A stretch of 64,000 nucleotides of DNA from a virus. Positions 1-31,989 of this stretch are shown piece after piece. The notes under the pieces were generated by a model. That model made no database searches. It was not told the DNA's origin and saw only the letters and a program-made list of their open reading frames with translations. Position numbers and translations under genes: made by a program. Every line of letters begins with the position of its first letter. The stretch's first letter is position 1. The stretch is from IMG/VR virus record IMGVR_UViG_3300044994_000386, positions 1 through 64,000 of that record, one strand, 5' to 3'.

Positions 1-66
1 TATACCATATTCCCGGCAAATTTGGTCAATTTGATTAAATTTAGAAGATTCTAGTAAATATTTCAT
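1..66 (-). CDS. LRR-array paralog, N-terminal part only (runs off left edge)
   Basis: ATG at 66 gives MKYLLESSKFNQIDQICREYGI, the same N-cap as the other array members. Confidence 0.85.
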   Translation of the reverse strand, partial: MKYLLESSKFNQIDQICREYGI

Positions 67-96
67 AAACGTATATATTAATTTTTAGAGTATATA

Positions 97-1245
97 TTAG
101 ATATCCCCCATCATTTCCCCGAATCTAAACTCATCTAGGGTTCCGTTTTTTCTCCAAATTGAATAATCTTCTTGATTTTTAATAATTTCGTTAATCTTAG
201 CAATATTATCTAAAATTAGTTGGGGGAGTGGATTATTATGACAGTCGAAATCACCACCCACTTCTCTTGGAGCTCCCATAAGTGAAGTTAATTGACTATT
301 ACTACAATAGAAATTACCACCGACATATCTCGGGGCTCCTTCTAATGAAGTTAATAGATTATTGGAACAGGAGAAATCACCACCGACTTCCCCAGGAGCT
401 CCCTCCAGTGAAGTTAATTGATTATATTGACAGTAGAAATCACCGGGCACTTCTCTCGGAGCCTCCTCCAGTGAAGTTAATTGATTGTTGTCACAGTAAA
501 AATTGGCACCGACTTCTCTAGGAGCTCCCTCTAGTGAAGTTAATTGATTATTATGACAGGAGAAATCACCGGGGACTTCCCTCGGAGCTCCCTCCAGTGT
601 AGTTAATTTATTATAATGACAGTAGAAATTGCCGCCGACTTCCCTCGGAGCTCCCTCTAGTGAAGTTAATTGATTATTATAGCAATAGAAATTATCACCG
701 ACTTCCCTCGGAGATCCCTCTAATGAAGTTAGTTGATTACCACTACAGGAAAAATCACCACCGACTTCCCTCGGAGCTCCCCACAATGAAGTTAATTGAT
801 TATAACGACAGTAAAAACTACCACCAATTTCTATCGGAGATCCCCTTAATGATGTTAATTGATTATCATCACAGTAGAAATGACCATTAACTTCTCTCGG
901 AGCCCCCATCAGTGAAGTTAATTGATTATCACTGCATTCGAAAACACCACCGACTTCCCCCGGAGCCCCCTCCAGTGAAATCAATTGATTGCTACCACAA
1001 TTGAAATCACCACCAACTTTCCACGGAGCCCCCTCCAATGAATTTAATTGATTGCGATGACAGTAGAAATTGCCACTTACTATACCAAACCTAAGGGGTA
1101 ATTTTGATAATCCCCTATCACTTAAATCTACATCACCATCTACATCAATAGATCCATCCCCATTTAGAGTATAGTCCCTTATACCATATTGCTGGCAAAT
1201 CTGATCGATTTTTTTAAATATCGAGGATTCTAGTAGGTATTTCAT
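97..1245 (-). CDS. LRR protein, 13 variable modules
   Basis: 382 aa; N-cap MKYLLESS..DGSIDVDGDVDL, 21-aa repeats, C-cap NPLP..EDYSIWR..DEFRF. Confidence 0.9.
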   Translation of the reverse strand: MKYLLESSIFKKIDQICQQYGIRDYTLNGDGSIDVDGDVDLSDRGLSKLPLRFGIVSGNFYCHRNQLNSLEGAPWKVGGDFNCGSNQLISLEGAPGEVGGVFECSDNQLTSLMGAPREVNGHFYCDDNQLTSLRGSPIEIGGSFYCRYNQLTSLWGAPREVGGDFSCSGNQLTSLEGSPREVGDNFYCYNNQLTSLEGAPREVGGNFYCHYNKLTTLEGAPREVPGDFSCHNNQLTSLEGAPREVGANFYCDNNQLTSLEEAPREVPGDFYCQYNQLTSLEGAPGEVGGDFSCSNNLLTSLEGAPRYVGGNFYCSNSQLTSLMGAPREVGGDFDCHNNPLPQLILDNIAKINEIIKNQEDYSIWRKNGTLDEFRFGEMMGDI

Positions 1246-1256
1246 TAAGTTATATA

Positions 1257-1901
1257 TTAAATATCCCGCATCATTTCCCTAAATCTAAACTCATCTATGG
1301 TTCCGTCCCTTCTCCAGATTGAATAATCTTCTTGATTTTTAATAATTTCCTTAATCTTAGCCATATTATCTAAAATTAGTTTAGGTAGTGGATTATTACT
1401 ACAGTAGAAGCCACCGCCCAATTTTCTCGGAGCTCCTACTAGTGAAGTTAATTGATTACCATAGCAGTAGAAATTGACACCGACTTCCTCCGGAGCTCCC
1501 CGGAGGGAGGTTAATCGATTATTACTACAGTGAAAATTGGCACCCACTTCTCTCGGAGCTCCCACCAGTGAAGTTAATTTATTATTATGACAATAGAAAT
1601 CACCACCCACTTCTTCCGGAGATCCTTCTAATGAAATTAATTGGTTACAATAACAATAGAAATTACCACCTACTTTTTTAGGAGCTCCTTTTAGTGTGTT
1701 CAATTTGTTATGACTACAATAGAATCCACCACTTACTATACCGAACTCCAACGGTAATTCTAATAATTCCCTATCAGTTAAATTTACATCTCCATCTACA
1801 TCAATAGATCCATCCCCATTTACAGTATATTTTTTTATATCAAATTTCTTGCAAATCCGGTCAATTTGGTTAAATTTGGAGGATTCTAGTAAATATTTCA
1901 T
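1257..1901 (-). CDS. LRR protein, 5 modules
   Basis: 214 aa, same caps and repeat. Confidence 0.9.
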   Translation of the reverse strand: MKYLLESSKFNQIDRICKKFDIKKYTVNGDGSIDVDGDVNLTDRELLELPLEFGIVSGGFYCSHNKLNTLKGAPKKVGGNFYCYCNQLISLEGSPEEVGGDFYCHNNKLTSLVGAPREVGANFHCSNNRLTSLRGAPEEVGVNFYCYGNQLTSLVGAPRKLGGGFYCSNNPLPKLILDNMAKIKEIIKNQEDYSIWRRDGTIDEFRFREMMRDI

Positions 1902-1925
1902 AAAGGTATAATTTTAGAGTATATA

Positions 1926-3011
1926 TTAAATCTCCCGCATCATTTCCCTAAATCTAAATTCGTCTAGGGTTCCATCCCTTCTCCAGATTGAATAATCTTC
2001 TTGATTTTTAATAATTTCCTTAATCTTAGACATATTATCTAAAATTAGTTTAGGAAGGGGATTATTATGACAATAAAAACTGCCACCGATTTCTCTAGGA
2101 GCACCCTTTAATGAAGTTAATTGATTATCATTACAATAGAAGTCATAAGTGACTTCTATTGGAGCTCCCACCAATGAAGTTAGTTGATTATTATCACAGT
2201 AAAAACTACCACCGATTTCTCTCGGAGCTCCCTCTAGTGAAGTTAATTGATTATTATCACAGTGGAAACTTTCACCGACTTCCATCGGAGCTCCTTCTAA
2301 TGAATTTAATTCATTATTACTACATTCGAAAACACCATTTACTTCTCTCAGAGCTCCCATCAGTGAAGTTAATTTATTAAAATTGCAGTAGAAACTGGCA
2401 CCTACTTGTTTTGGTGCCCCTTTTAGCGTGATCAATTGATTATTTTGACAGTAGAAACTGACACCGACTTGCATCGGACCTCCCTCTAATGAAGTTAATT
2501 GATTATTACTACATACGAAATCACCACCGACTTGCATCGGACCTCCCTCTAATGAAGTTAATCGATTATCACTACAGTAGAAATGACCATTAACTTCTCT
2601 CGGAGCTCCCATCAGTGAAGTTAATTGATTATTACTACATACGAAAACACCACCGACTTCCCCCGGACCTCCTTCTAATGAAGTTAATCGATTATTACGG
2701 CAGTAGAAATTGGCACCTACTTGCCTTGGGGCTCCTTTTAGCGTGTTCAATTGATTATTTTGACAGTAGAAACTGATACCGACTTCCCTCGGAGCTCCCT
2801 CTAACGAAGTTAATTGATTATTACCACAGTAAAAATCACCACTTACTATACCAAACCTAAGGGGTAATTTTGATAATCCCCTATTATTTAAATACACATC
2901 ACCATCTACATTTATAGACCCATCAGTATTTAGAGTATAGTCCGTTATACCATATTGCTGACAAATCTGATCAATTTCGTTAAATTTAGAGGATTCTAGT
3001 AGGTATTTCAT
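1926..3011 (-). CDS. LRR protein, 12 modules
   Basis: 361 aa, same caps and repeat. Confidence 0.9.
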   Translation of the reverse strand: MKYLLESSKFNEIDQICQQYGITDYTLNTDGSINVDGDVYLNNRGLSKLPLRFGIVSGDFYCGNNQLTSLEGAPREVGISFYCQNNQLNTLKGAPRQVGANFYCRNNRLTSLEGGPGEVGGVFVCSNNQLTSLMGAPREVNGHFYCSDNRLTSLEGGPMQVGGDFVCSNNQLTSLEGGPMQVGVSFYCQNNQLITLKGAPKQVGASFYCNFNKLTSLMGALREVNGVFECSNNELNSLEGAPMEVGESFHCDNNQLTSLEGAPREIGGSFYCDNNQLTSLVGAPIEVTYDFYCNDNQLTSLKGAPREIGGSFYCHNNPLPKLILDNMSKIKEIIKNQEDYSIWRRDGTLDEFRFREMMREI

Positions 3012-3035
3012 TTAAATATAATTTTAGAGTATATA

Positions 3036-3554
3036 TTAAATCTCCCGCATCATTTCCCAAAATCTAAATTCATCTAAGGTTCCATCCCTTCTCCAGATTG
3101 AATAATCTTCTTGATTTTTAATAATTTCCTCAATTATACCTAAATTATCTAAAATTAGTTGCGGTAGTGGATTATTACTACAATAGAAGCCACCACCCAA
3201 TTTTCTCGGAGCTCCTACCAGTGAAGTTAATTGATTACCATAGCAGTAGAAATTGACACCGACTTCCTCCGGAGCTCCCCGGAGGGAGGTTAATCGATTA
3301 TTACTACAGTAGAAATTGGCACCCACTTCTCTCGGAGCTCCCCGGAGGGAAGTTAATTGATTATTATGACAATAAAAATCAACAATTACTATACCGAACT
3401 TAAGGGGCAATTTTGATAGTCCTCTGTTGGTTAAATCCACATCACCATCTACATCGATAGATCCATCCCCATTTAGAGTATAGTTTTCTATACCATATTG
3501 CTGGCAAATCTGATGAATTTCGTTAAATTTAGAGGATTCTAGTAAATATTTCAT
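3036..3554 (-). CDS. LRR protein, 3 modules
   Basis: 172 aa, same caps and repeat. Confidence 0.9.
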   Translation of the reverse strand: MKYLLESSKFNEIHQICQQYGIENYTLNGDGSIDVDGDVDLTNRGLSKLPLKFGIVIVDFYCHNNQLTSLRGAPREVGANFYCSNNRLTSLRGAPEEVGVNFYCYGNQLTSLVGAPRKLGGGFYCSNNPLPQLILDNLGIIEEIIKNQEDYSIWRRDGTLDEFRFWEMMREI

Positions 3555-3579
3555 TTACATATTAAATTTAGAGTATATA

Positions 3580-4054
3580 TTAAATATCCTGCATCATTTC
3601 CCTAAATCTAAATTCATCTAAGGTTCCATCCATTCTCCAGATTGAATAATCTTCTTGATGATTTCCTGAATTATACCTAAATTATCTAAAATTAGTTGCG
3701 GCAGTGGATTATTAATACAGTAGAAGCCACCGCCCAATTTTCTTGGAGCTCCTAACAGTGAAGTTAATTGATTGTAATATCAGTAGAAATTGACACCGAC
3801 TTCCTCCGGAGCTCCCTCTAGTGAAGTTAGTTGATTATCTTGGCAATAGAAATTACCACTTACCATACCAAACTTAAGGGACAATTTCGATAATCCCCTA
3901 TTATATAAATCTACATCACCACTCACATCTATAGATCCGTCAGGATTTAGAGTATACTTTTTTATACCAGTTTTCCAGTTCAATCTCAGTTTCTATTTCC
4001 GGCAAATCTGATCGATTTTTTTTTAAATATCGAGTATTCTAGTATGTATTTCAT
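3580..4054 (-). pseudogene. Degraded LRR paralog
   Basis: Starts MKYILEYSIF; A9 run (A7 in the 97..1245 copy) shifts frame; short foreign insert near 3968-4000; TGA at 3780-3782; deletion in C-cap. Confidence 0.85.
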
Positions 4055-4065
4055 TAGTGTATATA

Positions 4066-5088
4066 TTAAAATTCCGACATCATTTCCCGGAATCTAAATT
4101 CGTCTATGGTTCCATCCCTTCTCCAGATTGAATAATCTTCTTGATTCTTGATGATATATTTAATCACATATAGATTATCTAAAATTAATTTAGGTAGTGG
4201 ATTATTATAGCAGTAGAAATTACCACCCACTTCTGTTGGGGCACCACACAATGAGGTTAATTTATTATAAGTGCAAAAGAAATCACCACCGACTTCTCTA
4301 GGAGCTCCCTCTAATGAAGTTAATTTATTACGATTACAGTAGAAATCACCACCCACTTCTCTCGGAGCTCCCTGGAGTGAAGTTAATTTATTATTACTAC
4401 ATTCAAAGGTGGCACCTACTTTTTCAGGAGCTCCCTCCAGCGAAATTAATTGATTATCATTACAGAGGAAATCAGCACCCACTTCTCTCGGAGCTCCGTC
4501 CAGTGAAGTTAATTGATTATAATAACAGTAGAAATCACCACCCACTTCTCTCGGAGCTCCCTGGAGTGAAGTTAATTTATTATAACTACAGTAGAAATCA
4601 CCGGGGACTTCTCTCGGAGCACCCTCCAATGAAGTTAGTTGATTATTATCACAGTAAAAACTACCACCGACTTCTCTCGGAGCTCCCCGGAGGGAAGTTA
4701 ATTGATTATAAATACAGGAGAAATTATCACCCACTTCCCGAGGAGCTCCCTCCAGTGAAATTAATTGATTATTATAACAGTAGAAATTGGCACCGACTTC
4801 CCTCGGAGCTCCCCGGAGGGAAGTTAATTGGTTATTACCACAGTAGAAATTGGCACCCACTTCCATCGGACTTCCCTCCAGTGAAGTTAATTGATTATTA
4901 TAGCAATAAAAGCTGCCACTTACTATACCAAATCTAACCGGTAATTCTGATAGACTTTTGTAGGCTAAATCTACATCACCATCCACATCGATGGATCCAT
5001 CCCCATTTAGAGTATAGTTTTTTATACCATATTGCTGGCAAATCTGATCAATTTCGTTAAATTTAGAGGATTCTAGTAGGTATTTCAT
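4066..5088 (-). CDS. LRR protein, 11 modules
   Basis: 340 aa, same caps and repeat. Confidence 0.9.
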   Translation of the reverse strand: MKYLLESSKFNEIDQICQQYGIKNYTLNGDGSIDVDGDVDLAYKSLSELPVRFGIVSGSFYCYNNQLTSLEGSPMEVGANFYCGNNQLTSLRGAPREVGANFYCYNNQLISLEGAPREVGDNFSCIYNQLTSLRGAPREVGGSFYCDNNQLTSLEGAPREVPGDFYCSYNKLTSLQGAPREVGGDFYCYYNQLTSLDGAPREVGADFLCNDNQLISLEGAPEKVGATFECSNNKLTSLQGAPREVGGDFYCNRNKLTSLEGAPREVGGDFFCTYNKLTSLCGAPTEVGGNFYCYNNPLPKLILDNLYVIKYIIKNQEDYSIWRRDGTIDEFRFREMMSEF

Positions 5089-5112
5089 TTAAGTATAATT
5101 TTAGAGTATATA

Positions 5113-5883
5113 TTAAATTTCCCGCATCATTTCCCTAAATCTAAACTTATCTAGTGTTCCATCCCTTCTCCAGATTGAATAATCTTCTTGATTTTTGATA
5201 ATTTCCTCAATTATACCTAAATTATATAAAATTAGTTGCGGCAGTGGATTATTACTACAGTAGAAGCCACCACCCAATTTTCTCGGAGCTCCCCTCAATG
5301 AAGTTAATTGATTACCATAGCAGTAGAAATTGGCACCGACTTTCTCCGGAGCTCCCCGGAGGGAGGTTAATCGATTATTACTACAGTAGAAATTGGCACC
5401 CACTTCTCTCGGAGCTCCATCTAATGAAGTTAGTTGATTATTATAGCAATAGAAACTACCACCAACTTCCTTCGGAGCTCCCTCTAATGAAGTTAGCCGA
5501 TTATATTCACAATAGAAGCTACCACCGACTTCTACCGGAGCTCCATCTAATGAAGTTAGTTGATTATTATAACAGTAGAAATCACCGGGTACTTCTCTCG
5601 GAGCCCCTTTTAATGAAGTTAATTGGTTATTATAACAGTGGAAATTGGCACCGACTTCACTCGGAGCTCCCCGGAGGGAAATTAATCGATTATTATGACA
5701 ATAAAAATCACCACTTACTATACCGAACTTAAGGGGTAATTCTGATAATCCCCTATTGATTAAATCCACATCACCATCCACATCAATAGATCCATCTCCA
5801 TTTAGAGTATAGTTTTCTATGTCATATTGCTGACAAATCCGATCAATTTGGTTAAATTTGGAGGATTCTAGTAAATATTTCAT
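5113..5883 (-). CDS. LRR protein, 7 modules
   Basis: 256 aa, same caps and repeat. Confidence 0.9.
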   Translation of the reverse strand: MKYLLESSKFNQIDRICQQYDIENYTLNGDGSIDVDGDVDLINRGLSELPLKFGIVSGDFYCHNNRLISLRGAPSEVGANFHCYNNQLTSLKGAPREVPGDFYCYNNQLTSLDGAPVEVGGSFYCEYNRLTSLEGAPKEVGGSFYCYNNQLTSLDGAPREVGANFYCSNNRLTSLRGAPEKVGANFYCYGNQLTSLRGAPRKLGGGFYCSNNPLPQLILYNLGIIEEIIKNQEDYSIWRRDGTLDKFRFREMMREI

Positions 5884-5908
5884 TTACATATTAAATTTAG
5901 AGTATATA

Positions 5909-6805
5909 TTAAATCTCCCGCATCATTTCCCAAAATCTAAACTCATCTAAGGTTCCATCCCTTCTCCAGATTGAATAATCTTCTTGATACTTGATGATAT
6001 GTTTAATAATATCTAGATTATCTAAAATTAGTTGGGGGAGTGGATTATTAAAACAGTAGAAATCACCACCGATTTCTCTCGGAGCTCCCTCCAGTGAAGT
6101 TAATTGATTATTACTACATACGAAAACACCACCGACTTGCATCGGACCTCCCTCTAATGAAGTTAATTGATTACTACTGCAGTGGAAATTAGCACCTACT
6201 TCTCTTGGGGCTCCTTCCAGTGAAGTTAATTGATTACCATAGCAGTAGAAATTGGCACCGACTTTCTCCGGAGCTCCCCGGAGGGAAGTTAATTGATTAT
6301 TATGGCAGTAGAAATTGGCACCGACTTCTCTCGGACCCCCTTCTAATGAAGTTAAATAATTATTATAGCAATAGAAACTACCACCAACTTCCTTCGGAGC
6401 TACCTCTAATGAAGTTAGCCGATTATATTCACAATAGAAGCTACCACTGACTTCTACCGGAGCTCCCTCTAATGAAGTTAGTTGATTATTATAACAATAG
6501 AAACTACCACCAACTTCCTTCGGAGCCCCTTTTAATGAAGTTAGTTTATTATTGTTGCAGTAGAAATCACCGCGGACTTCTCTCTGAGCTCCCCGGAGGG
6601 AAGTTAATCGATTATTATGACAATAAAAGCTGCCACTTACTATACCAAACTTAAGGGGTAATTCTGATAATCCCATATTGATTAAATCCACATCACCATC
6701 TACATCAATAGACCCATCTCCATTTAGAGTATATTTTTCTATACCATATTGCTGGCAAATCTGATCAATTTGATTAAATTTAGAGGATTCTAGTAGGTAT
6801 TTCAT
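5909..6805 (-). CDS. LRR protein, 9 modules
   Basis: 298 aa, same caps and repeat. Confidence 0.9.
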   Translation of the reverse strand: MKYLLESSKFNQIDQICQQYGIEKYTLNGDGSIDVDGDVDLINMGLSELPLKFGIVSGSFYCHNNRLTSLRGAQREVRGDFYCNNNKLTSLKGAPKEVGGSFYCYNNQLTSLEGAPVEVSGSFYCEYNRLTSLEVAPKEVGGSFYCYNNYLTSLEGGPREVGANFYCHNNQLTSLRGAPEKVGANFYCYGNQLTSLEGAPREVGANFHCSSNQLTSLEGGPMQVGGVFVCSNNQLTSLEGAPREIGGDFYCFNNPLPQLILDNLDIIKHIIKYQEDYSIWRRDGTLDEFRFWEMMREI

Positions 6806-6829
6806 TTAAGTATAATTTTAGACTATATA

Positions 6830-7915
6830 TTAAATATCCCTCATCAATTCACTAAATCTAAATTCATCTAAGGTTCCGTCCCTTCTCCAAATTGAATAAT
6901 CTTCTTGATACTTGATAATTTCCTTAATCTTAGACATATTATCTAAAATTAATCGGGGGAGTGGATTATTAAAACAGTAGAAATCACCACCGATTTCTCT
7001 CGGAGCTCCCTCCAGTGAAGTTAATTGATTATTACTACATACGAAAACACCACCGACTTGCATTGGACCTCCCTCTAATGAAGTTAATTGATTATTATAA
7101 CAGTAGAAATTGGCACCGACTTCTATCGGAGACCCTTCTAATGAAGTTAATTTATTATCATTACAGTATAAATCACTACCGATTTCCCTCGGGGCTCCCC
7201 TCAATGAAGTTAATTGATTATTACCACAGTAAAAATTACCACCCACTTTTTTCGGAGCTCCATCTAATGAAGTTAATTGATTATTATAGCAATAGAAACT
7301 ACCACCAACTTCCTTCGGAGCTCCCTCTAATAAAGTTAGCTGATTATATTCACAATAGAAGCTACCACCGACTTCTACCGGAGCTCCATCTAATGAAGTT
7401 AGTTGATTATTATAACAGTAGAAATCACCGGGCACTTCTCTCGGGGCCCCTTTTAATGAAGTTAATTGGTTATTATAACAGTGGAAATTGGCACCGACTT
7501 CACTCGGAGCTCCCTCCAATGAAGTTAGCTGATTATATTCACAATAGAAGCTACCACCGACTTCTACCGGAGCTCCATCTAATGAAGTTAGTTGATTATT
7601 ATAACAATATAAACCACCACCAACTTCCTTCGGAGCCCCTTTTAATGAGCTTAATTGGTTATTATAACAGTGGAAATTGGCACCGACTTCACTCGGAGCT
7701 CCCCGGAGGGAAGTTAATCGATTATTATGACAATAAAAGTTGCCACTTACTATACCAAATCTAAGGGGTAATTCTGATAGACTTTTGTAGGCTAAATCTA
7801 CATCACCATCCACATCGATAGATCCATCCCCATTTAAAGTATAGTCCCTTATACCATATTGCTGGCAAATCTGATCAATTTCCTTAAATTTGGAAGATTC
7901 TAGTAAGTATTTCAT
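6830..7915 (-). CDS. LRR protein, 12 modules (start corrected to MKYLLESS)
   Basis: 361 aa from ATG at 7915; the 12-aa extension in the ORF track overlaps the upstream cassette. Confidence 0.9.
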   Translation of the reverse strand: MKYLLESSKFKEIDQICQQYGIRDYTLNGDGSIDVDGDVDLAYKSLSELPLRFGIVSGNFYCHNNRLTSLRGAPSEVGANFHCYNNQLSSLKGAPKEVGGGLYCYNNQLTSLDGAPVEVGGSFYCEYNQLTSLEGAPSEVGANFHCYNNQLTSLKGAPREVPGDFYCYNNQLTSLDGAPVEVGGSFYCEYNQLTLLEGAPKEVGGSFYCYNNQLTSLDGAPKKVGGNFYCGNNQLTSLRGAPREIGSDLYCNDNKLTSLEGSPIEVGANFYCYNNQLTSLEGGPMQVGGVFVCSNNQLTSLEGAPREIGGDFYCFNNPLPRLILDNMSKIKEIIKYQEDYSIWRRDGTLDEFRFSELMRDI

Positions 7916-7926
7916 TAGTGTATATA

Positions 7927-8040
7927 TTAAATATCCCGCATCATTTCCCAAAATCTAAACTCATCTAGGGTTCCATCCCTTCTCCAGATTGAATAATCTT
8001 CAATTTGGTTAAATTTGGAGGATTTTATTAGATGTTTCAT
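7927..8040 (-). CDS. Cap-only mini-paralog (37 aa) with no LRR modules
   Basis: Manual translation MKHLIKSSKFNQI-EDYSIWRRDGTLDEFRFWEMMRDI*, an in-frame fusion of N-cap start and C-cap end. Confidence 0.7.
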   Translation of the reverse strand: MKHLIKSSKFNQIEDYSIWRRDGTLDEFRFWEMMRDI

Positions 8041-8069
8041 TAGGATATATATTAAATTTAGAGTATATA

Positions 8070-8714
8070 TTAAATATCCCGCATCAATTCACTAAATCTA
8101 AATTCATCTAGTGTTCCATCTTTTCTCCAGATTGAATAGTCTTTTTGATACTTGATAATATGTTTAATCATATCCATATTATCTAAAATTAATCGGGGGA
8201 GTGGATTAATATAGCAACGGAAATCACCACCGACTTCTCGCGGAGCTCCACGTAATGAAGTTAATTGATTATCAATACAGTTGAAATCACCACCTACTTT
8301 TCGCGGAGCTCCCTCCAATGATGTTAATTGATTATAATAACAGTAGAAACTAGTACCTACTTCCCTTGGAGCTCCTGATAATGAAATCAATTGATTATTA
8401 TTGCAGTAGAAACCGGCACCCACTTCCCTTGGAGCTCCTTCTAGATTAGTCAATTGATTACCATAGCAGTAGAAATTACCACCTACTTCTATAGGAGCTC
8501 CCTTCAGTGTAGTTAATTGATTACGATGACAGTAGAAATTAGCACTTACTATACCAAACTTAAGTGGTAATTCTGATAGACCTTGATAAGACAAATCCAC
8601 ATCACCATCTACATCAATAGATCCATCCCCATTTACAGTATATTTTTTTATATCAAATTTCTTGCAAATCTGATCAATTTGGTTAAATTTAGAGGATTCT
8701 AGTAGGTATTTCAT
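8070..8714 (-). CDS. LRR protein, 5 modules
   Basis: 214 aa, same caps and repeat. Confidence 0.9.
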   Translation of the reverse strand: MKYLLESSKFNQIDQICKKFDIKKYTVNGDGSIDVDGDVDLSYQGLSELPLKFGIVSANFYCHRNQLTTLKGAPIEVGGNFYCYGNQLTNLEGAPREVGAGFYCNNNQLISLSGAPREVGTSFYCYYNQLTSLEGAPRKVGGDFNCIDNQLTSLRGAPREVGGDFRCYINPLPRLILDNMDMIKHIIKYQKDYSIWRKDGTLDEFRFSELMRDI

Positions 8715-8739
8715 TTACATATTAAATTTAGAGTATATA

Positions 8740-9699
8740 TTAAATATCCTGCATCATTTCCCTAAATCTAAACTCATCTAGGGTTCCATCACTTCTCCAG
8801 ATTGAATAATCTTCTTGATTCTTAATGATGTGTTTAATCATAGTCAAATTATCAAAAATTAGTTCAGGAAGTGGATTACCATAGCAGTAGAAGTCACCAC
8901 CAACTTCTCTCGGAGCACCCTTTAATGAAGTTAATTGATTATCATTACAATAGAAGTCATAAGTGACTTCTATTGGAGCTCCCTCTAATGAAGTTAGTTG
9001 ATTATTATTACAGTAAAAACTACCACCGATTTCTCTCGGAGCACCCTCCAATGAAGTTAGCTGATTATTATCACAGTAAAAACTAACACCGATTTCTTTC
9101 GGAGCTCCCCGCAATGAAGTTAGTTGATTATTACTGCAGTGGAAATTGTCACCCACTTCTCTCGGAGCTCCCTCTAGTGAAGTTAATTGATTACTACTAC
9201 AGTGGAAATTACCACCTACTTCTCTTGGGTCTCCTTCCAGTGAAGTTAATTGATTATCATAACAGTAGAAATCGGTACCGACTTCTCTTGGTGATCCCTT
9301 TAATGAAAATAATTGATTACTAATACAAGAGAAACCACCACCCACTTCTTTTGGAGCTCCCTGCAGTGAAGTTAATTTGTTATTACTACAGTAGAAATCA
9401 CCACCCACTTCTTCCGGAGATCCTTCTAATGAAATTAATTGGTTACAATAACAATAGAAATTACCACCTACTTTTTTAGGAGCTCCTTTTAGTGTGGTCA
9501 ATTTGTTATGACTACAATAGAATCCACCACTTACTATACAGAACTCCAACGGTAATTCTAATAATTCCCTATCAGTTAAATTTACATCACCATCTACATC
9601 AATAGATCCATCCACATTTAGAGTATATTTTTCTATACCATATTGCTGGCAAATCTGATGAATTTTGTTAAATTTAGAGGATTCTAGTAAATATTTCAT
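8740..9699 (-). CDS. LRR protein, 10 modules
   Basis: 319 aa, same caps and repeat. Confidence 0.9.
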   Translation of the reverse strand: MKYLLESSKFNKIHQICQQYGIEKYTLNVDGSIDVDGDVNLTDRELLELPLEFCIVSGGFYCSHNKLTTLKGAPKKVGGNFYCYCNQLISLEGSPEEVGGDFYCSNNKLTSLQGAPKEVGGGFSCISNQLFSLKGSPREVGTDFYCYDNQLTSLEGDPREVGGNFHCSSNQLTSLEGAPREVGDNFHCSNNQLTSLRGAPKEIGVSFYCDNNQLTSLEGAPREIGGSFYCNNNQLTSLEGAPIEVTYDFYCNDNQLTSLKGAPREVGGDFYCYGNPLPELIFDNLTMIKHIIKNQEDYSIWRSDGTLDEFRFREMMQDI

Positions 9700-9724
9700 T
9701 TACATATTAAATTTAGAGTATATA

Positions 9725-10684
9725 TTAAATATCCCGCATCATTTCCCTAAATCTAAACTCATCTAGGGTTCCGTCGCTTCTCCAGATTGAATAATCTTCT
9801 TGATTTTTAATGATGTGTTTAATCATAGTCAAATTATCAAAAATTAGTTGAGGAAGTGGATTATCATAGCAGTAGAAGTTACCACCAACTTCTCTCGGAG
9901 CTCCCTCTAGTGAAGTTAATTTATTATCATAACAGTAGAAATTACCACCCACTTCTCTCGGAGCACCCCTCAATGAAGTTAATTGGTTATTATAGCAGTA
10001 GAAGCCACCACTGACTTCCTCCGGAGCCCCTCTCAATGAAGTTAATTTATTATTATGACAGTAGAAATGACCACCCACTTCTATCGGACCTCCCTCCAGT
10101 GAAGTTAATTGATTATAACCACAGTGGAAACTACTACCGACTACCTCTGGAGCTCCCCTCAATGAAGTTAATCGATTATAACAACAATAGAAAACACCAC
10201 CTACTTCTCTAGGAGCTCCCTCCAGTGTAGTTAATTGATTATTATTACAGTAGAAATTACCACCTACTTGTCTTGGAGCTCCCCTTAATGATGTTAATTG
10301 ATTATCATCACAGTAGAAACTACCACCAACTTCTTTCGGAGCCCCCTCCAGCGAAGTTAATTGATTATTACTACAAAAAAAGCCATCACCGACTTCCTCC
10401 GGAGCTCCTTCCAGTGAAATCAATTGATTGCTACCACAGTTGAAATCACCACCGACTTTTCTCGGTGAACATTCTAGTGAAGTTAATTGGTTACCATAGC
10501 AGCGGAAATCACCACTTACTATACCGAACTTAAGGGGTAATTCTGATAATCCCTTATTGGTTAAATTTACATCACCATCTACATCGATAGATCCATCCCC
10601 ATTTACAGTATAGTTTTTTATACCAAATTCCTTACAAATCTGGTCAATTTGGTTAAATATGGAGGATTCTAGTAGGTATTTCAT
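9725..10684 (-). CDS. LRR protein, 10 modules
   Basis: 319 aa, same caps and repeat. Confidence 0.9.
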   Translation of the reverse strand: MKYLLESSIFNQIDQICKEFGIKNYTVNGDGSIDVDGDVNLTNKGLSELPLKFGIVSGDFRCYGNQLTSLECSPRKVGGDFNCGSNQLISLEGAPEEVGDGFFCSNNQLTSLEGAPKEVGGSFYCDDNQLTSLRGAPRQVGGNFYCNNNQLTTLEGAPREVGGVFYCCYNRLTSLRGAPEVVGSSFHCGYNQLTSLEGGPIEVGGHFYCHNNKLTSLRGAPEEVSGGFYCYNNQLTSLRGAPREVGGNFYCYDNKLTSLEGAPREVGGNFYCYDNPLPQLIFDNLTMIKHIIKNQEDYSIWRSDGTLDEFRFREMMRDI

Positions 10685-10713
10685 TAGGATACATATTAAA
10701 TTTATAGTATATA

Positions 10714-10985
10714 TTAAATATCCCGCATCAATTCTACAAATCTAAATCTAAACTCATCTAGGGTTCCATCCTTTCTCCAGATTGAATAATCTTCCTGATT
10801 TTTGATAATTTGTTTAATCATATACAAATTATCTAAAATTAGTTTAAGCAAGGGATTATCATAGCAACGGAAACCACAACAATCTCTTTTGGAGTTTCCT
10901 TTAATTAAGTTAATTTATTAAAATGACATAAGAAATCACCACCGACTTCTCTCGGAGCTCCCCTTAATGAAGTTAATTGATTATG
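10714..10985 (-). pseudogene. 5'-truncated LRR paralog remnant (about 2 modules plus C-cap)
   Basis: Repeat and C-cap DNA (gattgaataatcttc, ggagctcccc) with indels; no N-cap. Confidence 0.8.
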
Positions 10986-10993
10986 TCTCGTCA

Positions 10994-11395
10994 AAATGGA
11001 TAAAAGGTAGAACTAAAAATAAAAAATTTGGCGGTTATAATTTATCCGGTAAGGTTTGTTATTTTAATAAGTTGTTAAATAAAGAAAAATATTTTGAAAA
11101 CAGTGATATAATACCTGACGGGTAGATAAAGGGTAAATTGAAAAAAAAAAGACTTTGTTTTTATAATCCTAAATTAAATATAGAAAAATTATTTACAGAG
11201 GATTCACCAGAATTTAGATCTATTCGAGGTAGGTTACCTAAATTACCTTTTATTGAGGAGATTAAAGACATAAGTGAGTTTATAAGAATTTTTAGAAGTG
11301 ATGTGGATGAGGAATCCTTGATGTGGCATCGTGACCGTGAAGATGAAGCCACACATCAAATGAATCTTGAGATAAAAATTAAAAAATTATTTTAA
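10994..11395 (+). pseudogene. Remnant: homing-endonuclease-type WIKG repeats fused to an internally deleted WHRDRED (cupin-like) phage protein
   Basis: Frame reads KWIKGR..IPDG*IKGK..LMWHRDRED..NLEIKIKKLF; in-frame TAG where W is expected. Confidence 0.45.
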
Positions 11396-15496: not shown

Positions 15497-16117
15497 ATGC
15501 CATTACCACATTTTACAAGATTATTAACAACCGGAAGTCCAGGTGGTCCCGGAACTAAGCCTCATGAGGCTGTATATTTGAATTTATTTGAGATTACTTT
15601 CATATTACCTACGATTCTACAAGCTCAGGGTAGAGATCCAATTTTAATGCTACAGAATGCGTTAAAAATTGATATAAGTCTAACAGAAGCAGATATAGGA
15701 GTACAGGAGCAAAGATTTAAGTACTCAACTCGAGCTTTCTTAACTACACCAACTAAGACTACAATTGAATTTAGTATACCATTTAACGTTAATGTTAATG
15801 ATGCTGGTTCAATGGAAATCTGGAACACATTAAAAGCTTGGTATGACTTAGTTTGGAACTCACAAAATGGTTCATTGCATTATAAGAGTGATATAATTGG
15901 CACTATCATCGTTAACCAACATGATAAAAAGGGTATTGTTTTAAGAAGGGTTACTTTCCAAAACTGCCAAATCAAGAAACTTGGTGGTATTTCTTTAGAT
16001 TGGACATCAAATGATATCTGGAAAGATGTTACTGCTGATTTCATAGCTGATTACTGGATTGATGAATACATAGATGGTAACTTCACAATTCAACCTCCTA
16101 TTATACCTGGTTATTAA
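15497..16117 (+). CDS. Tail tube protein (gp19-like)
   Basis: LFEITF..WYDLVWN..YKSDIIGTIIVNQHDKKG..LDW; adjacent to baseplate and sheath genes. Confidence 0.7.
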   Translation: MPLPHFTRLLTTGSPGGPGTKPHEAVYLNLFEITFILPTILQAQGRDPILMLQNALKIDISLTEADIGVQEQRFKYSTRAFLTTPTKTTIEFSIPFNVNVNDAGSMEIWNTLKAWYDLVWNSQNGSLHYKSDIIGTIIVNQHDKKGIVLRRVTFQNCQIKKLGGISLDWTSNDIWKDVTADFIADYWIDEYIDGNFTIQPPIIPGY

Positions 16118-17463: not shown

Positions 17464-20400
17464 TTAAGAAATAAATCCACCTGATTGAATAGCACCTGTT
17501 CTAAGGATTTTAACGTTATTTACTATAACTCCCATACCCTTGATTGGTTCTACATAAGTATCAAGAACACCAATTTGGTTATCAATTATTTCAGGTGTGT
17601 TATTTTCTTCATCACACTTGTTGAAGTAATTGTATAAACCTTGTCTGTTTACATACTGTTCGCAAATAATATCAGCTCTCAATTTAATCTCAGATCTAAT
17701 CTCAGGGGTGTTAAATTTCCATTGGAAGTCTAACAACATTCTTGAAAGTTCTCTTTCAAGTTCAATTAATACTTCTCTTACGTGAATATAAGATAATGCT
17801 GATTTATAGAGTCTTTGGGCAGTGTTCTCAGTTTCAATTATATATCCACGATTTTTCTTGAATACTATAGGATTCATCTGAGCTTGGTTTAACCACTCAA
17901 TATCTTGGGGTGTGAAATCCATTTCAATTCCAGATATACCAGTGATTCTACCATTTGTAGTACCCGCTGCAATTGTCCAGGGAACAATATTTGTTACATT
18001 GGTAATTTGTTTTCTCATGTAAGTAGTTGCTACAAACATTGCTGGTGGGACATCTGTTGGTCTACCACCATCATTTACAGTTAAGTAAGGAGTAAAGTAA
18101 CCTACAGTTGTTGTACCCCTACCTTCACCGAATGAGTACAAGAAAGCGGGGTTGCTTTCAGGATCACCACCTTTTGAAACAAACTCAATACTCAATACGC
18201 CATTTTTTAAGAAACTTGGAGAAGACGAATTCTTGAATGACTTCATAGAAGGCATATTTATGAATCCAAAAACATCAAGCCTTTCACCGCATATATCAAC
18301 AAGTTGTTGTTTTGATCTTTCAGTTAAGCCTAAACCAAATGAGTCTACTAAGTATCTGAAGTCTAAAGCTTCTTTGTTTGTGATAGCTCTGAATAAAGGA
18401 GTACCTTTACCAACAAGATTTAATATAGCGTTTTGTCTTTCTTCTGTACCATCAGGCATTGAGGCTTCTCTGATTCTAAATCCTTTAAGAGAAATAGCTT
18501 TATATGCAGTAATATAATCTTCAATTGAAGTATATCTTGTAGTTTGTAGATCACCACTTGGACCGTATGATAACTTATTAATTCTAGCATCACAGATAAT
18601 TTCTACCAATGATGTATCAGCAGCATATATTTTTTTACTTAAAATTCTAGTAAGTTTCTTAGGAACCTGACCAGGTACTAATGTTGTAGTATCTACGTAG
18701 GCTTCTAAGAAGTCACCTACTTTAATCTCACTATATCTTGCAGCATTAACTAAAATCTTATTAGGTGCTTGAGTATATCCCAATGGAACTTCAATTTCGA
18801 TAGTTTGTTTGTAATTGGCTCTATTTGAGTGTATATCTATTGTAGTATTTGAGCTCAAATTATCAATTGTTTCGGGTGCACTTAGTGTAGAGTTCATGAA
18901 GGCAACATTTAAAATATTTGAGCTATCAAAGTACATTTGTAAATAGTGCTTCTTTGAACAATTCCATATTACTGAAACATTTTGTAAAACTTCGTTATTT
19001 AAGTTCTGAGCAACTTCAAACCAATATTCACCACCACTTGCGGTAGCAGGTGTGGAATTTGAAATTACGATCATGCCGTTGTTTAAAACTGAATTTGGAA
19101 CAATAAATGAATCACCGAACATTGCTATTGGATTTATTGGCCAACTTGAAGTAACAATTGGTGCATAGAATCTAACATAATTCATGCCATTTGAATTGAT
19201 AAATTCAACTTCGTTAATTTTTTCTGAAAGATAGTTTGAATAGAAGTAATCACCCGTGTTGATAATACCGTCGTTGTATCTTATATAGAACTGTGAGTAT
19301 TTTGCAACAACACCATCTGCTGGGGAACTAGGATTGAAAGCAGAGTTTCTAGTAGTAATGGTTTCTTCACCCAAAATGAACTCATCATCGATTCTGTATA
19401 AAACAAAGTTACCATTTAAAACATCTTGTAATTGCGTAACACTCAATCCGGTGTTTTGAATGATAAACGATTTATTAGCATTTGTTGAAGTTACGATATT
19501 TGTTATTGGCATACCTTCAAGTGAAACCTTCTCAAAAGTCGAGAAGTTATAAACCATAGCCATTTTATCTTTATTACTTGAATTTAATAGTGTAATCAAA
19601 TAGTTGAATAATTTAATTCTTCTGTATCTATGATAATTTGAAGTACTTGGAGTAGAAGCGGTGTCATTAAATTCGAACTTCAATGAAACATTACCAGATG
19701 TACCAACATTTGAAATAAAGTAGTCATTACTTCCTGTACCAAAAGTTAACTCTTTATAACCAGAACTATTAACAGTTACATGGTTAAATGAGTAAGTCAC
19801 AAATGATCCACTACTCACACCAACTGTTAAGTAGCCCAACACAATATCAGTCGGTGTGACTGAAGGATTCGTTGAATTGATAGTATTATCAATTTTAGTA
19901 ATATTACCTGTTGAGTCTAACACAATAACTGAACTAAATGTTCCGTTGTTTGGGTAATTAGATGGAACCAATTCAAATGAAGCTGTACCAGTAACGTTAA
20001 CTCTATTACCACCTATAATAGCATAAGAAGAAGTAGAGCCTACAATCGGGCCACCAACAACATTACTAACACTATATGTGAAGTTAATTGCAGAGGCAGT
20101 AAAAGATAAAGAATCGAATTTAACACCGGCTACAAATCCTTCAGCAAACCAGCCAGTTCTAGAACCATTGTTTACAAACCCACCTCTTACACCAATGGAG
20201 GTGCTGTCAATAGCCGCAACATTACCTGGTCTATCAAGGTATGTATTTGTGAATGATACGGTCTCCATAATAACATCGTTATAAGATAAGAAGTTGATCG
20301 ATGAAGCAGTACTGCCTACTAAATTATTACCAATTAAATCAACTAGTCCGTTAGTATATTCTGTTTCAAACAAATCAGTATTGAAAGCACAGAATAGACC

Positions 20401-27981: not shown

Positions 27982-28030
27982 GATTATAAACGAGAATTTT
28001 AGATATATATTGAAAAATAATAATTCCTTT

Positions 28031-31437: not shown

Positions 31438-31573
31438 TTTTATTATTTTTATTATTTTTATTTATATATATAGCAAATATAGTTAAAAATGTATAAAATA
31501 GAAAATCTTTCAAATGAAAATATATTCTAATATAATTAATAAATTTTAATTATAAAAATAAATATATATATTT

Positions 31574-31984: not shown

Positions 31985-31989
31985 TTTTT

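What the first reader, a model, noticed from the sequence alone, without database searches (positions are those of the whole stretch)
1..10985. VLR-like variable LRR receptor array in a phage
Seen: at least 15 head-to-tail paralogous units share a constant N-cap and C-cap around exact 21-aa modules. Intact lengths are 172, 214, 214, 256, 298, 319, 319, 340, 361, 361 and 382 aa, all 109+21n (n=3-13, 97 modules in total). The scaffold NxLTSLxGxP..V...F.C is almost invariant, while residues around FxCxxN vary strongly. Known: that segment corresponds to the LRR beta strand forming the concave ligand-binding face, and lamprey VLRs use constant caps plus a variable number of LRR cassettes. Inference: this is a diversifying binder repertoire, e.g. 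against host defence proteins, receptors or competing phages.
Basis: partly seen in the sequence, partly recalled or inferred. Interest (0 to 1): 0.92.

Follow-up and report, generated by a model that had tools for sequence, protein, structure and literature searches.

The report
Phage tandem array of variable LRR binders
A fragment of a very large uncultured phage from hot-spring microbial mats carries at least a dozen back-to-back genes for small leucine-rich-repeat proteins with fixed ends and a fixed scaffold but different repeat numbers and binding-face residues, which looks like an inherited, recombining panel of binding proteins whose targets are unknown.

Summary
Window 97-10684 (minus strand) carries 11 intact genes of 172-382 aa. 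Each has a 64-aa N-cap, n x 21 aa (n=3-13, 97 modules) and a 45-aa C-cap. A twelfth copy is cut by the contig end, and there are three decayed or deleted copies. The fold is a high-confidence LRR solenoid (pLDDT 96). It is closest to the IpaH/SspH/YopM substrate-binding LRRs and to the 21-residue cysteine-ladder LRR of internalin J; lamprey VLRs are much more distant.

Variation is enriched at the canonical concave positions, with pN/pS about 0.9 against 0.18 on the scaffold. Positive selection is not demonstrated, and two convex positions vary just as much. Paralogs are mosaics of shared module blocks in shifted register.

The proteins are acidic and have no signal peptide or membrane segment, so they are not receptors. 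Every copy is a complete gene, and no reverse transcriptase or deaminase was found. This is therefore an inherited multigene family, not a VLR-like assembly system.

The family is widespread in huge-phage contigs; a 597-kb relative has 114 N-cap matches. Targets, expression and delivery are unknown. This scan has already found the same family on other DNA, in at least 24 genomes. I found no published description.

The parts
1..66 (-). 5' end (first 22 codons, MKYLLESSKFNQIDQICREYGI) of a further family member that runs off the left end of the contig
97..1245 (-). LRR gene, 382 aa, 13 modules
1257..1901 (-). LRR gene, 214 aa, 5 modules. Its N-cap is closest to gene 8740 (93% nt) and its C-cap to gene 1926 (94%).
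1926..3011 (-). LRR gene, 361 aa, 12 modules
3036..3554 (-). LRR gene, 172 aa, 3 modules (the shortest). Its modules 1-3 share a 91-nt exact tract with modules 3-5 of gene 1257.
3555..4065 (-). Decayed copy. The leader region is broken by stops, there is an in-frame stop after the first module, and the C-cap is frameshifted.
4066..5088 (-). LRR gene, 340 aa, 11 modules
5113..5883 (-). LRR gene, 256 aa, 7 modules. This is the member that was folded (pLDDT 96.3, pTM 0.90).
5909..6805 (-). LRR gene, 298 aa, 9 modules. It shares a 109-nt exact tract (module 8 to C-cap) with gene 6830 (module 11 to C-cap).
6830..7915 (-). LRR gene, 361 aa from the MKYLL start, 12 modules. The ORF list extends it to a TTG at 7951.
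7927..8040 (-). 37-codon ORF that joins N-cap residues 1-13 directly to the last 24 residues of the C-cap, with no solenoid. The simplest reading is a deletion product.
8070..8714 (-). LRR gene, 214 aa, 5 modules. All five are singletons at the 90% nt identity threshold.
8740..9699 (-). LRR gene, 319 aa, 10 modules
9725..10684 (-). LRR gene, 319 aa, 10 modules
10685..11137 (-). Decayed copy: 2-3 modules and a C-cap spread over two frames with stops, and no N-cap.
5884..5908 (-). Representative 24-25-nt intergenic spacer (TATATACTCTAAATTTAATATGTAA). With the stop codon of the upstream gene it forms TTTAATATATAC. The same spacer occurs at 1902-1925, 3012-3035, 5089-5112, 6806-6829, 8715-8739 and 9700-9724. 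It contains no Shine-Dalgarno sequence.

Best explanation
The region is an inherited multigene family of small, soluble, acidic LRR proteins encoded by a megaphage.

Shown:
- Each gene encodes a conserved 64-aa N-cap (a helix plus a short beta unit), 3-13 copies of a 21-residue module N-x-L-T-S-L-x-G-A-P-x-E-V-G-G-x-F-x-C-x-x, and a conserved 45-aa helical C-cap.
- The fold is an LRR solenoid of the bacterial short-repeat type.
- The scaffold is under strong purifying selection.
- The x positions of the beta-strand and ascending loop (module positions 2, 15, 16, 18, 20, 21) change at about the neutral rate or faster. They are dominated by Tyr, Ser, Asn, Asp, His and Gly.

Shown as pattern, inferred as mechanism:
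- The family grows and diversifies by ordinary homologous recombination on two nested substrates. The first is the roughly 350-nt C-cap/spacer/N-cap junction, which changes gene number and produces dead copies. The second is the 63-nt module framework, which adds, removes and shuffles modules in register. That would explain why every length is 109+21n and why paralogs share module blocks at shifted positions.

Inferred:
- Each paralog presents a different concave surface and binds a different protein target inside the infected cell. Most plausibly these are host proteins such as defence or takeover targets. The analogy is to the IpaH/SspH LRR domains that recognise host substrates, and to the diverse T-even internal proteins that block host restriction enzymes.
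For: - Architecture and counts.
- Fold: AF2 pLDDT 96.3, pTM 0.90. Foldseek PDB top hits are IpaH3, SspH1-LRR, IpaH7.8-LRR and YopM. phmmer against the PDB gives SspH2 at 7.6e-15 and InlJ at 1.2e-14, with the Cys in register.
- Selection, close pairs: in 33 independent close module pairs, pN/pS is 0.88 at concave positions and 0.18 on the scaffold (odds ratio 9, p=4e-9).
- Selection, tree-based counts: significant purifying selection at N1, L3, L6, G8, P10, V13, F17 and C19, and omega 1.0-2.4 at positions 2, 15, 16, 20 and 21.
- Mosaicism: shared module strings. Shifted-register exact tracts up to 109 nt, and discordant nearest neighbours for the N-cap and C-cap.
- Birth and death: three decayed or deleted copies.
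- Soluble and cytoplasmic: maximum 19-residue Kyte-Doolittle hydropathy is 1.0 or less, and pI is 4.5-6.8.
- The family is real and general. 39 IMG/VR loci carry relatives, many as tandem arrays whose gene lengths differ by multiples of 21. There are 114 N-cap matches in a 98%-complete 596,785-bp relative whose terminase is 63% identical. The N-cap alone hits 518 clusters at 50% identity.
- Unique stretches of the array recur exactly in runs from several samples.
- The longest exact repeat between paralogs is 109 nt, shorter than a typical read.
Against: - No target, binding or expression data exist; no RNA run holds the stretch.
- Positive selection is not demonstrated. No site is significantly above omega=1 (best is position 20, p=0.08), so relaxed constraint on exposed residues would give the same picture.
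- Two convex-side positions (7 and 11) are as variable as the concave ones.
- I had no model coordinates, so 'concave' rests on the canonical LRR register plus the DSSP strand positions, not on measured solvent exposure.
- Gene order and module counts come from a short-read metagenome assembly and could not be checked with long reads. Both contig ends break inside family members.
Confidence: 0.6

Rival explanations
1. The LRR proteins are loaded into the capsid through a T4-like N-terminal capsid-targeting leader and injected with the DNA. They would act as pre-made counter-defence binders, like T4 IPI*. This concerns the delivery route and is compatible with the binder reading.
For: - 10 of 74 unrelated ORFs on the contig begin with M-[KN]-x-[LIF]-x-x-[FY], against 0 of 418 internal Met positions.
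- T4 IpII and IpIII start MKTYQEFIAE, and IpI starts MKTFKEFTST. Residues 4 and 7 of the T4 leader carry the targeting function (PMC9026906).
- T-even internal proteins are a diverse set of defence blockers that share only this leader (PMC3012670).
- Family members in other phages begin MKYLKLFENF, MKHIKPYKIFES or MKSYKQFINES.
- All LRR genes carry TAATATATA 14-32 nt upstream, a motif also found upstream of the sheath and tube genes. It is one letter away from the T4 late promoter TATAAATA.
Against: - In this window the LRR leader is MKYLLESSKF, with Ser rather than Phe/Tyr at position 7, so the fit is only partial.
- The leader is part of the predicted N-cap helix, residues 2-19.
- The proteins are acidic, whereas (from my own knowledge, not checked here) the DNA-embedded T4 internal proteins are basic.
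- No prohead protease above threshold was found here or in the relatives.
- The leader-bearing ORFs have no annotation that would mark them as head proteins.
- There is no virion proteome.
Confidence: 0.3
2. The constant caps dock the variable LRR onto one shared partner, such as a protease, a ligase-like enzyme or another phage effector. The family would then act as interchangeable substrate adaptors (F-box or IpaH logic) rather than as stand-alone inhibitors.
For: - Caps are under purifying selection (pN/pS about 0.3).
- The N-cap is conserved across many phage lineages (169 N-cap hits in 39 loci; 518 clusters).
- The closest folds are the substrate-recognition domains of IpaH/SspH ligases.
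Against: - No catalytic domain is fused to the phage forms.
- The C-cap is not conserved outside this clade, which fits a structural cap better than a docking site.
- Caps are needed in any case to seal an LRR hydrophobic core.
- No candidate partner was identified.
Confidence: 0.15
3. The proteins are virion-surface adhesins or host-range determinants, with LRRs used for receptor binding as in some phage fibres.
For: - LRR or beta-helix domains occur in putative host-recognition proteins of the chimallivirus Goslar (bioRxiv 10.64898/2026.04.21.720040).
- The upstream motif is shared with tail genes.
Against: - No known fibre or baseplate attachment domain is present.
- The proteins are only 172-382 aa.
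- One free Cys per repeat suits a reducing cytoplasm.
- A relative has more than 100 paralogs, far more than a virion could plausibly display.
Confidence: 0.07
4. This is a programmed diversification system: VLR-like assembly of cassettes into an incomplete gene, or DGR-type mutagenic retrohoming.
For: - The caps-plus-cassette architecture resembles it.
- A cap-only mini-ORF at 7927-8040 superficially resembles an incomplete germline VLR gene.
- Contigs of the same samples contain module junctions not present in the window.
Against: - Every copy is a complete gene with its own start and upstream motif.
- No RVT_1 and no cytidine/dCMP deaminase was found in this contig or in the 98%-complete relative.
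- Differences between copies include many synonymous changes (pS 0.14-0.47), which indicates old inherited divergence.
- The extra junctions are explained by further paralogs outside the window. The contig is estimated at only 15% of the genome, and k-mer depth over the array is 5-25 times that of the flank.
Confidence: 0.03
5. The array, or its gene order and module counts, is an artefact of short-read assembly of a repeat family.
For: - Both contig ends break inside family members.
- Public contigs of the source samples are fragmented across the array and show alternative joints.
- In-register chimeras would still give intact ORFs of 109+21n.
Against: - The longest exact tract shared by two paralogs is 109 nt.
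- Unique segments recur exactly in several runs and samples.
- About 30 independent contigs from other samples carry comparable arrays.
Confidence: 0.08

Closest known systems
Listeria internalin J (PDB 3bz5), the 21-residue 'cysteine-ladder' LRR
   Same: Both have a 21-residue repeat with Cys at the sixth position of the conserved LRR segment. phmmer gives E=1.2e-14 with the Cys aligned in register, and there is an NCBIfam hit.
   Different: InlJ is a secreted, cell-wall-anchored adhesin with an internalin cap and an inter-repeat domain. The phage proteins have no signal peptide or anchor and have their own caps.
LRR substrate-recognition domains of the IpaH/SspH/SlrP effectors and YopM
   Same: These are the best structural matches (IpaH3 3cvr, SspH1 4nkg, IpaH7.8 7wjq, YopM 4ow2) and the best sequence match (SspH2, 7.6e-15). 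They share the short N-x-L-t-s-L-P...P type repeat. They also form paralogous families in which the LRR decides which host protein is bound.
   Different: The phage proteins have no NEL ubiquitin-ligase domain and no type III secretion signal. The repeat is 21 residues rather than 20, it has a Cys ladder, and it is encoded by a phage.
Lamprey/hagfish variable lymphocyte receptors
   Same: Both have constant N- and C-caps around a variable number of LRR modules, with variation concentrated at the x positions of the beta-strand.
   Different: VLRs are only distant fold matches (ranks 28 and 34). They have 24-residue modules, disulphide-knot caps and a signal peptide with membrane anchoring. They are assembled somatically from incomplete cassettes with a deaminase. 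Here there are complete inherited genes and no deaminase.
T-even phage internal proteins (IPI, IPII, IPIII) with a capsid-targeting sequence
   Same: Both are diverse phage proteins sharing a short MK-x-(Y/F/L)-x-x-F type N-terminal leader. IPI* is an injected inhibitor of a host restriction enzyme (PMC3012670, PMC9026906).
   Different: The folds are unrelated. The leader of this window's LRR genes fits only partly. Packaging was not tested.
Lineage-specific expansions in large viruses: about 35 zinc-ribbon genes in Bacillus phage G (PMC7824862), and the LRR proteins annotated in giant eukaryotic viruses and in uncultured Caudovirales (BFVD)
   Same: Both are large paralogous families in very large viral genomes. 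BFVD lists LRR proteins from klosneuviruses, marseilleviruses, pithoviruses and uncultured phages as fold neighbours.
   Different: The phage G expansion is a different fold and was called unprecedented at about 35 copies. Here a relative has about 114 copies. The two jumbo-phage reviews I searched do not mention LRR.
Tandem LRR gene clusters that evolve by unequal crossing-over, such as plant NLR clusters and the Tetrahymena 90-bp-exon LRR genes (PMC6564038)
   Same: Both add, lose and shuffle fixed-length LRR units in register among tandem paralogs, and both show birth-and-death with pseudogenes.
   Different: Those are cellular eukaryotic genomes with introns or NB-ARC domains. This is a phage, and the proteins are free-standing LRRs.

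Membership tests
LRR superfamily | Repeats carrying the conserved segment LxxLxLxxNxL that form a curved solenoid with a parallel beta-sheet | tested here: met
   The module reads V-x-G-x-F-x-C-x-x-N-x-L. The AF2 solenoid has pLDDT 96.3 with one strand per repeat at positions 17-18. Foldseek matches LRR structures with probability 1.00. Pfam LRR_4 is just at threshold for the 382-aa member (27.6 against 27 bits) and below it for shorter members.
InlJ-type cysteine-ladder LRR / internalins | A 21-residue repeat with Cys replacing the hydrophobic residue at position 6 of the conserved segment | tested here: met
   The period is exactly 21 and C19 is invariant in 97 of 97 modules. The alignment to 3bz5 keeps the Cys in register.
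InlJ-type cysteine-ladder LRR / internalins | Signal peptide, internalin N-cap, inter-repeat domain and cell-wall anchor | tested here: not met
   No hydrophobic N-terminus (N-terminal 20-residue hydropathy -0.03 to -0.69; maximum 19-residue window 1.0 or less). No internalin or anchor domains in Pfam or NCBIfam beyond the LRR region.
IpaH/SspH NEL E3 ligases | A C-terminal NEL ubiquitin-ligase domain following the LRR | tested here: not met
   Only a 45-aa helical C-cap follows the repeats. The matches to SspH2, SspH1 and IpaH cover the LRR region only.
Lamprey VLR system | An incomplete germline gene completed by copying from flanking partial cassettes, with an AID/APOBEC-like deaminase | tested here: not met
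   All 11 copies are complete ORFs with a start codon, both caps and an upstream motif. No dCMP/cytidine deaminase domain was found in the contig or in a 98%-complete relative. Caveat: the contig is about 15% of the genome, and PF00383 may miss divergent deaminases.
Lamprey VLR system | Cysteine-knot LRRNT/LRRCT caps, 24-residue LRRV modules, secretion or membrane anchoring | tested here: not met
   Modules are 21 residues. The caps carry at most one or two Cys and give only a sub-threshold LRRNT hit inside the repeats. There is no signal peptide.
Diversity-generating retroelement targets | A nearby reverse transcriptase with a template/variable repeat pair and adenine-specific changes | tested here: not met
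   No RVT_1 match in the contig or in the complete relative. Differences between copies are spread over synonymous and non-synonymous sites.
T4-type capsid-targeted internal proteins | A 10-19-residue N-terminal propeptide that targets the protein to the prohead core (residues 4 and 7 critical) and is removed by the prohead protease at (L/I)xE | tested here: inconclusive
   A shared leader exists on 10 of 74 unrelated ORFs and resembles T4 MKTYQEFIAE / MKTFKEFTST (PMC9026906). The window's LRR leader MKYLLESSKF keeps L4 and an LLE triplet but has S7. A prohead protease was seen only sub-threshold, in one relative. Packaging and cleavage cannot be tested with these tools.
   The module fits that pattern letter for letter. 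The paper is not held. I confirmed only that it exists, through reference lists, so the class definition is unverified here.

The most novel reading that the evidence does not exclude
Megaphages of this clade carry an inherited repertoire of tens to more than a hundred different LRR binders. The binders are made late, loaded into the capsid through a T4-like leader and co-injected with the DNA. The infecting genome would then arrive with a ready-made, combinatorially diversified set of inhibitors against whatever defence or takeover targets the host happens to have. This would be a viral counterpart of an innate immune receptor repertoire, kept diverse by in-register module shuffling.
Probability: 0.2. 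Interest if true: 0.9.

Novelty: new variant of a known kind. Interest (0 to 1): 0.6.

Why it matters
LRR multigene families that recognise many targets are a hallmark of cellular immunity (NLRs, TLRs, VLRs) and of bacterial effectors (IpaH, internalins). Finding the same design as one of the largest gene families in phages suggests that very large phages solve the many-possible-targets problem in the same way. The family takes 11% of this contig, and a 597-kb relative has about 114 copies.

If the targets are host defence proteins, the family would be a rich source of natural inhibitors and of compact, Cys-ladder LRR binder scaffolds. It would also help explain what megaphages do with their extra coding capacity. 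The two jumbo-phage reviews I could search (2021 and 2026) do not mention it.

Tried and rejected
- Expression: no RNA holder is listed for the stretch, so nothing can be said about expression.
- Assembly check: only short Logan contigs of DNA runs were available. They cannot bridge the array, and their alternative joints cannot separate other paralogs from strain variants.
- The sigma-70 promoter and terminator scan found no more than shuffles give (35 against 49.7 expected).
- Pfam on ten leader-bearing ORFs and PHROGs on neighbouring ORFs gave no functional names. The leader class therefore could not be tied to head proteins.
- Peptidase_S77 (T4 gp21): nothing on this contig, and one sub-threshold hit in a relative.
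- RVT_1 and dCMP/cytidine deaminase: none.
- Literature: searches for LRR expansions in huge, jumbo or mega phages found nothing relevant. The 841-kb phage preprint does not mention them.
- Miyashita et al. 2014 is not held.
- The long plus-strand ORFs inside the array (for example 4314-4937 and 7015-7764) are rejected as genes. They are the stop-free antisense frame of a periodic sequence, repeated module by module.
- Longer homologues fuse this LRR type to a PcfJ-like domain in bacterial or plasmid proteins. They match the modules only, not the caps, and PcfJ has no known function, so this gives no functional lead.

Full report
**What the window is.** The window is the first 64 kb of an 86,435-bp linear IMG/VR virus contig that CheckV rates about 15% complete. 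It is a tailed phage. It has a T4-type large terminase at 27974-30175, a sheath-like protein at 17464-21258 and a tail-tube protein at 15497-16117. It also has a ribonucleotide reductase, a Ro60/TROVE protein, an ankyrin protein, a Dam-type methylase and an Mre11-like nuclease. Its terminase is 61-66% identical to those of three IMG/VR contigs, one of which is 596,785 bp and 98% complete. The phage therefore belongs to a clade of roughly 570-600-kb megaphages. Public runs that hold the stretch are hot-spring and microbial-mat metagenomes.

**Check of the observation.** On the minus strand between 97 and 10684 there are eleven intact ORFs of 382, 214, 361, 172, 340, 256, 298, 361, 214, 319 and 319 aa. 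Each splits exactly into a 64-aa N-cap, n x 21 aa and a 45-aa C-cap, with n=3-13 and 97 modules in total.
- A twelfth gene starts at position 66 and runs off the left end. A thirteenth starts at 86211 on the plus strand and runs off the right end of the contig. Both contig ends therefore break inside the family.
- Three relics complete the region. One is a copy with stops and a frameshift (3555-4065). One is a 37-codon ORF joining the first 13 N-cap residues to the last 24 C-cap residues (7927-8040). One is a degraded copy without an N-cap (10685-11137).
- Intact genes fill 89% of 1-10985 and 11% of the contig.
- Genes are separated by a nearly identical 24-25-nt spacer (11 nt in one case) with no Shine-Dalgarno sequence.
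'At least 15 units' is correct if relics are counted.

**Where the variation lies.**
- Over 97 modules, L3, L6 and C19 are invariant. N1, G8, P10 and F17 are nearly so.
- Entropy is highest at position 20 (2.99 bits). It is followed by 7 and 11 (2.33 each), 16 (2.29), 21 (2.06), 15 (1.74), 18 (1.72) and 2 (1.31).
- In the canonical register (V13=L1, F17=L4, C19=L6, N1=N9, L3=L11), positions 15, 16, 18, 20, 21 and 2 are the x2, x3, x5, x7, x8 and x10 residues. Those residues line the concave face and the ascending loop.
- The concave positions average 2.02 bits. That is p=0.0013 against all 6-position subsets, and p=0.038 against subsets of the 13 non-core positions only.
- Positions 7 and 11 flank the G-A-P turn on the convex side and mostly swap charged residues. 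The variation is therefore enriched on the concave face but not confined to it.
- Residues at the hypervariable sites are mainly Tyr, Ser, Asn, Asp, His and Gly.

**Selection.**
- Among all unique modules, pN/pS is 0.72 for the eight variable positions and 0.17 for the scaffold.
- In 33 independent close module pairs (84-98% nt identity), pN/pS is 0.88 at the six concave positions, 0.81 at positions 7 and 11, and 0.18 elsewhere. The non-synonymous/synonymous odds ratio for concave against scaffold is 9 (p=4e-9).
- I made a counting test on a module tree with parsimony ancestors. It gives significant purifying selection at N1, L3, L6, G8, P10, V13, F17 and C19.
- The same test gives omega of 1.0-2.4 at positions 2, 15, 16, 20 and 21. 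None is significantly above 1; the best is position 20 (52 non-synonymous against 3 synonymous changes, p=0.08).
- Position 18 is constrained towards Tyr, with omega 0.35.
- The honest statement is a very strong contrast between scaffold and binding-face sites, with face sites evolving at about the neutral rate or faster. Diversifying selection is plausible but not shown in this window.
- The caps are moderately constrained (pN/pS about 0.3).

**How the family diversifies.**
- Clustering modules at 90% nt identity gives shared strings in different genes and at different positions.
- Shifted-register examples: modules 2-4 of gene 5113 match modules 5-7 of gene 6830. Modules 3-5 of gene 1257 match modules 1-3 of gene 3036. 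Module 8 to the C-cap of gene 5909 matches module 11 to the C-cap of gene 6830.
- N-cap and C-cap relationships disagree. The N-cap of gene 1257 is closest to gene 8740 (93%), but its C-cap is closest to gene 1926 (94%).
- With the relics, this is the signature of birth-and-death evolution. It fits unequal, in-register homologous recombination and gene conversion.
- The C-cap/spacer/N-cap junction (about 350 nt at 80-96% identity) is a substrate for changing gene number. The 63-nt framework is a substrate for changing module number.
- Nothing indicates a dedicated mechanism. There is no reverse transcriptase and no cytidine/dCMP deaminase in this contig or in the complete relative. Copies also differ at many synonymous sites.

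**Fold and nearest relatives.**
- AlphaFold2 on the 256-aa member, with a 44-sequence alignment, gives pLDDT 96.3 and pTM 0.90. The model has an N-terminal helix (residues 2-19), two short strands, one strand pair per repeat and three C-terminal helices.
- Foldseek against the PDB ranks IpaH3, SspH1-LRR (in complex with PKN1), IpaH7.8-LRR (in complex with GSDMB) and YopM first. VLRs appear only at ranks 28 and 34.
- Sequence search of the PDB finds SspH2 (7.6e-15) and internalin J (1.2e-14), the latter with the Cys column in register. NCBIfam gives the same two.
- Pfam sees only a threshold-level LRR_4 hit, and PHROGs gives two families of unknown function.
The module fits it, but the paper is not held and I could not verify the definition.
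- The proteins have no signal peptide or membrane segment. Ten of the eleven have pI 4.5-5.8 and one has pI 6.8. Each carries one Cys per repeat. That points to a soluble cytoplasmic protein, not a receptor.

**How general it is.**
- The 172-aa member has 1,642 homologues of similar length and 2,288 longer ones in the 5.8-billion-protein collection. All carry only generic or uninformative names. Many lie on contigs of 267-597 kb.
- The first 45 residues of the N-cap alone hit 518 clusters at 50% identity.
- In IMG/VR, 39 loci encode relatives. Many are tandem arrays in which gene lengths share the same remainder modulo 21 (for example L017, L018, L021, L026, L029), so the 'caps + n x 21' rule holds elsewhere.
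- The 596,785-bp relative has 114 N-cap matches, mostly between 98 and 180 kb. It is the only one that shares this window's C-cap.
- The cultured Vibrio phages VB_VaC_SRILMA and TDDLMA have 8 matching places. The 735-kb uncultured phages LR756501 and LR756503 have 20.
- BFVD lists LRR proteins of giant eukaryotic viruses and of uncultured Caudovirales as fold neighbours.
- This scan has noted the same family in at least 24 other genomes, with similar conclusions from other follow-ups.

**Delivery and timing (inferred).**
- Ten of 74 non-LRR ORFs on the contig begin M-[KN]-x-[LIF]-x-x-[FY], against none of 418 internal Met positions.
- T4 IpII and IpIII begin MKTYQEFIAE, and IpI begins MKTFKEFTST. 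In T4, residues 4 and 7 of this capsid-targeting sequence carry the targeting function and residues 8 and 10 the processing (PMC9026906).
- T-even internal proteins are described as a diverse set of anti-restriction proteins that share only this leader (PMC3012670).
- Family members in other phages start MKYLKLFENF, MKHIKPYKIFES or MKSYKQFINES. In this window the LRR leader is MKYLLESSKF, with Ser at position 7. It lies inside the predicted N-cap helix, and the proteins are acidic.
- TAATATATA occurs 44 times on the contig. Twenty-nine of these occurrences lie within 60 nt upstream of 28 ORF starts, a space that is 3% of the sequence. They include all 11 LRR genes and the tube gene.
- Close variants precede the sheath gene and its neighbours. 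DNA-metabolism enzymes carry TATAAATA instead.
- This suggests that each LRR gene is its own transcription unit in the same class as the tail genes. Without a transcriptome it remains a suggestion.
- I put capsid packaging and injection at about 0.3.

**Reliability of the assembly.**
- The longest exact tract shared by two paralogs is 109 nt.
- Unique pieces of the array recur exactly in contigs from several runs and samples.
- K-mer depth over the array is 5-25 times that of the unique flank. Alternative module junctions exist in the same samples, as expected if many more paralogs lie outside the window.
- Without long reads, the exact order and module counts cannot be certified.

**Verdict.** The 'VLR-like receptor' label is right only as an architectural analogy. 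The best-supported description is an inherited, recombining multigene family of soluble short-repeat LRR binders in a megaphage. It is closest in fold to bacterial effector LRR domains and in repeat type to internalin J. Targets are unknown, and the delivery route is open. I found no published account of such phage LRR repertoires in the jumbo-phage literature available here.

Noticed in passing
window 12189, 21897(-), 30188, 32546, 36477(-), 41706, 48301, 50448, 50716; contig 67378: Ten otherwise unrelated ORFs start with a common leader (MKHLKDFEKF, MKYLKLFENF, MKSFQKFLEE and similar). It matches M[KN]x[LIF]xx[FY] in 10 of 74 ORFs against 0 of 418 internal Met positions, and it resembles the T4 internal-protein leader MKTYQEFIAE / MKTFKEFTST. 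None of the ten has a Pfam annotation apart from DUF5824.
   Followed up: partly
whole contig; for example window 15467, 21283(-), 24610(-), 42406 and upstream of every LRR gene: TAATATATA is strongly start-associated. Twenty-nine of its 44 occurrences lie within 60 nt upstream of 28 ORF starts. It precedes the LRR genes, the tube gene, the sheath-region genes (the sheath gene itself carries a close variant) and many ORFans. Mre11-like, glutamine synthetase, HAD and a second Dam-type methylase carry TATAAATA at about -26 instead. This suggests two promoter-like classes.
   Followed up: partly
whole window: No gene has a recognisable Shine-Dalgarno sequence; upstream regions are A/T runs. The array has 34-37% GC against 26-30% for the rest of the window.
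   Followed up: no
window 7927-8040 (-): A 37-codon ORF fuses the start of the N-cap to the end of the C-cap in frame and keeps the spacer upstream. It is probably a deletion product of recombination within the array.
   Followed up: partly
window 282-521, 4314-4937, 5244-5732, 7015-7764 (+): Long plus-strand ORFs (up to 249 aa, MKLIDYY... repeats) lie antisense to the LRR genes. They are the stop-free mirror frame of a periodic sequence, not evidence of genes.
   Followed up: yes
window 53993-55537 (-) and upstream to about 56000: There is a phage Ro60/TROVE protein with a vWA domain. Earlier notes of the scan propose Y-RNA-like elements upstream of it. I did not examine this.
   Followed up: no
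window 39342-40448 (-): A glutamine-synthetase-like gene (Gln-synt_C 2e-18, Gln-synt_N 1e-8) in a phage.
   Followed up: no
relatives G001 377278-379995, G002 31240-34985, G003 167976-171615: In the three related megaphage contigs the terminase match is split into two pieces 0.6-1.6 kb apart, in separate ORFs. In this window it is one ORF. This may be an intron, intein or homing-endonuclease insertion in the relatives.
   Followed up: no
proteins P0122-P0133 and others: In bacterial, plasmid or MAG proteins of 500-800 aa, the same 21-residue LRR module type is fused to a PcfJ-like domain (PF14284). A few are fused to 2',5' RNA ligase-type domains.
   Followed up: no
window 3036-3554 (-), residues 5-26: The N-cap helix gives a weak Rho_N (helix-extended-helix) hit (E=0.0075, below threshold). 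This is probably only a helix resemblance.
   Followed up: no
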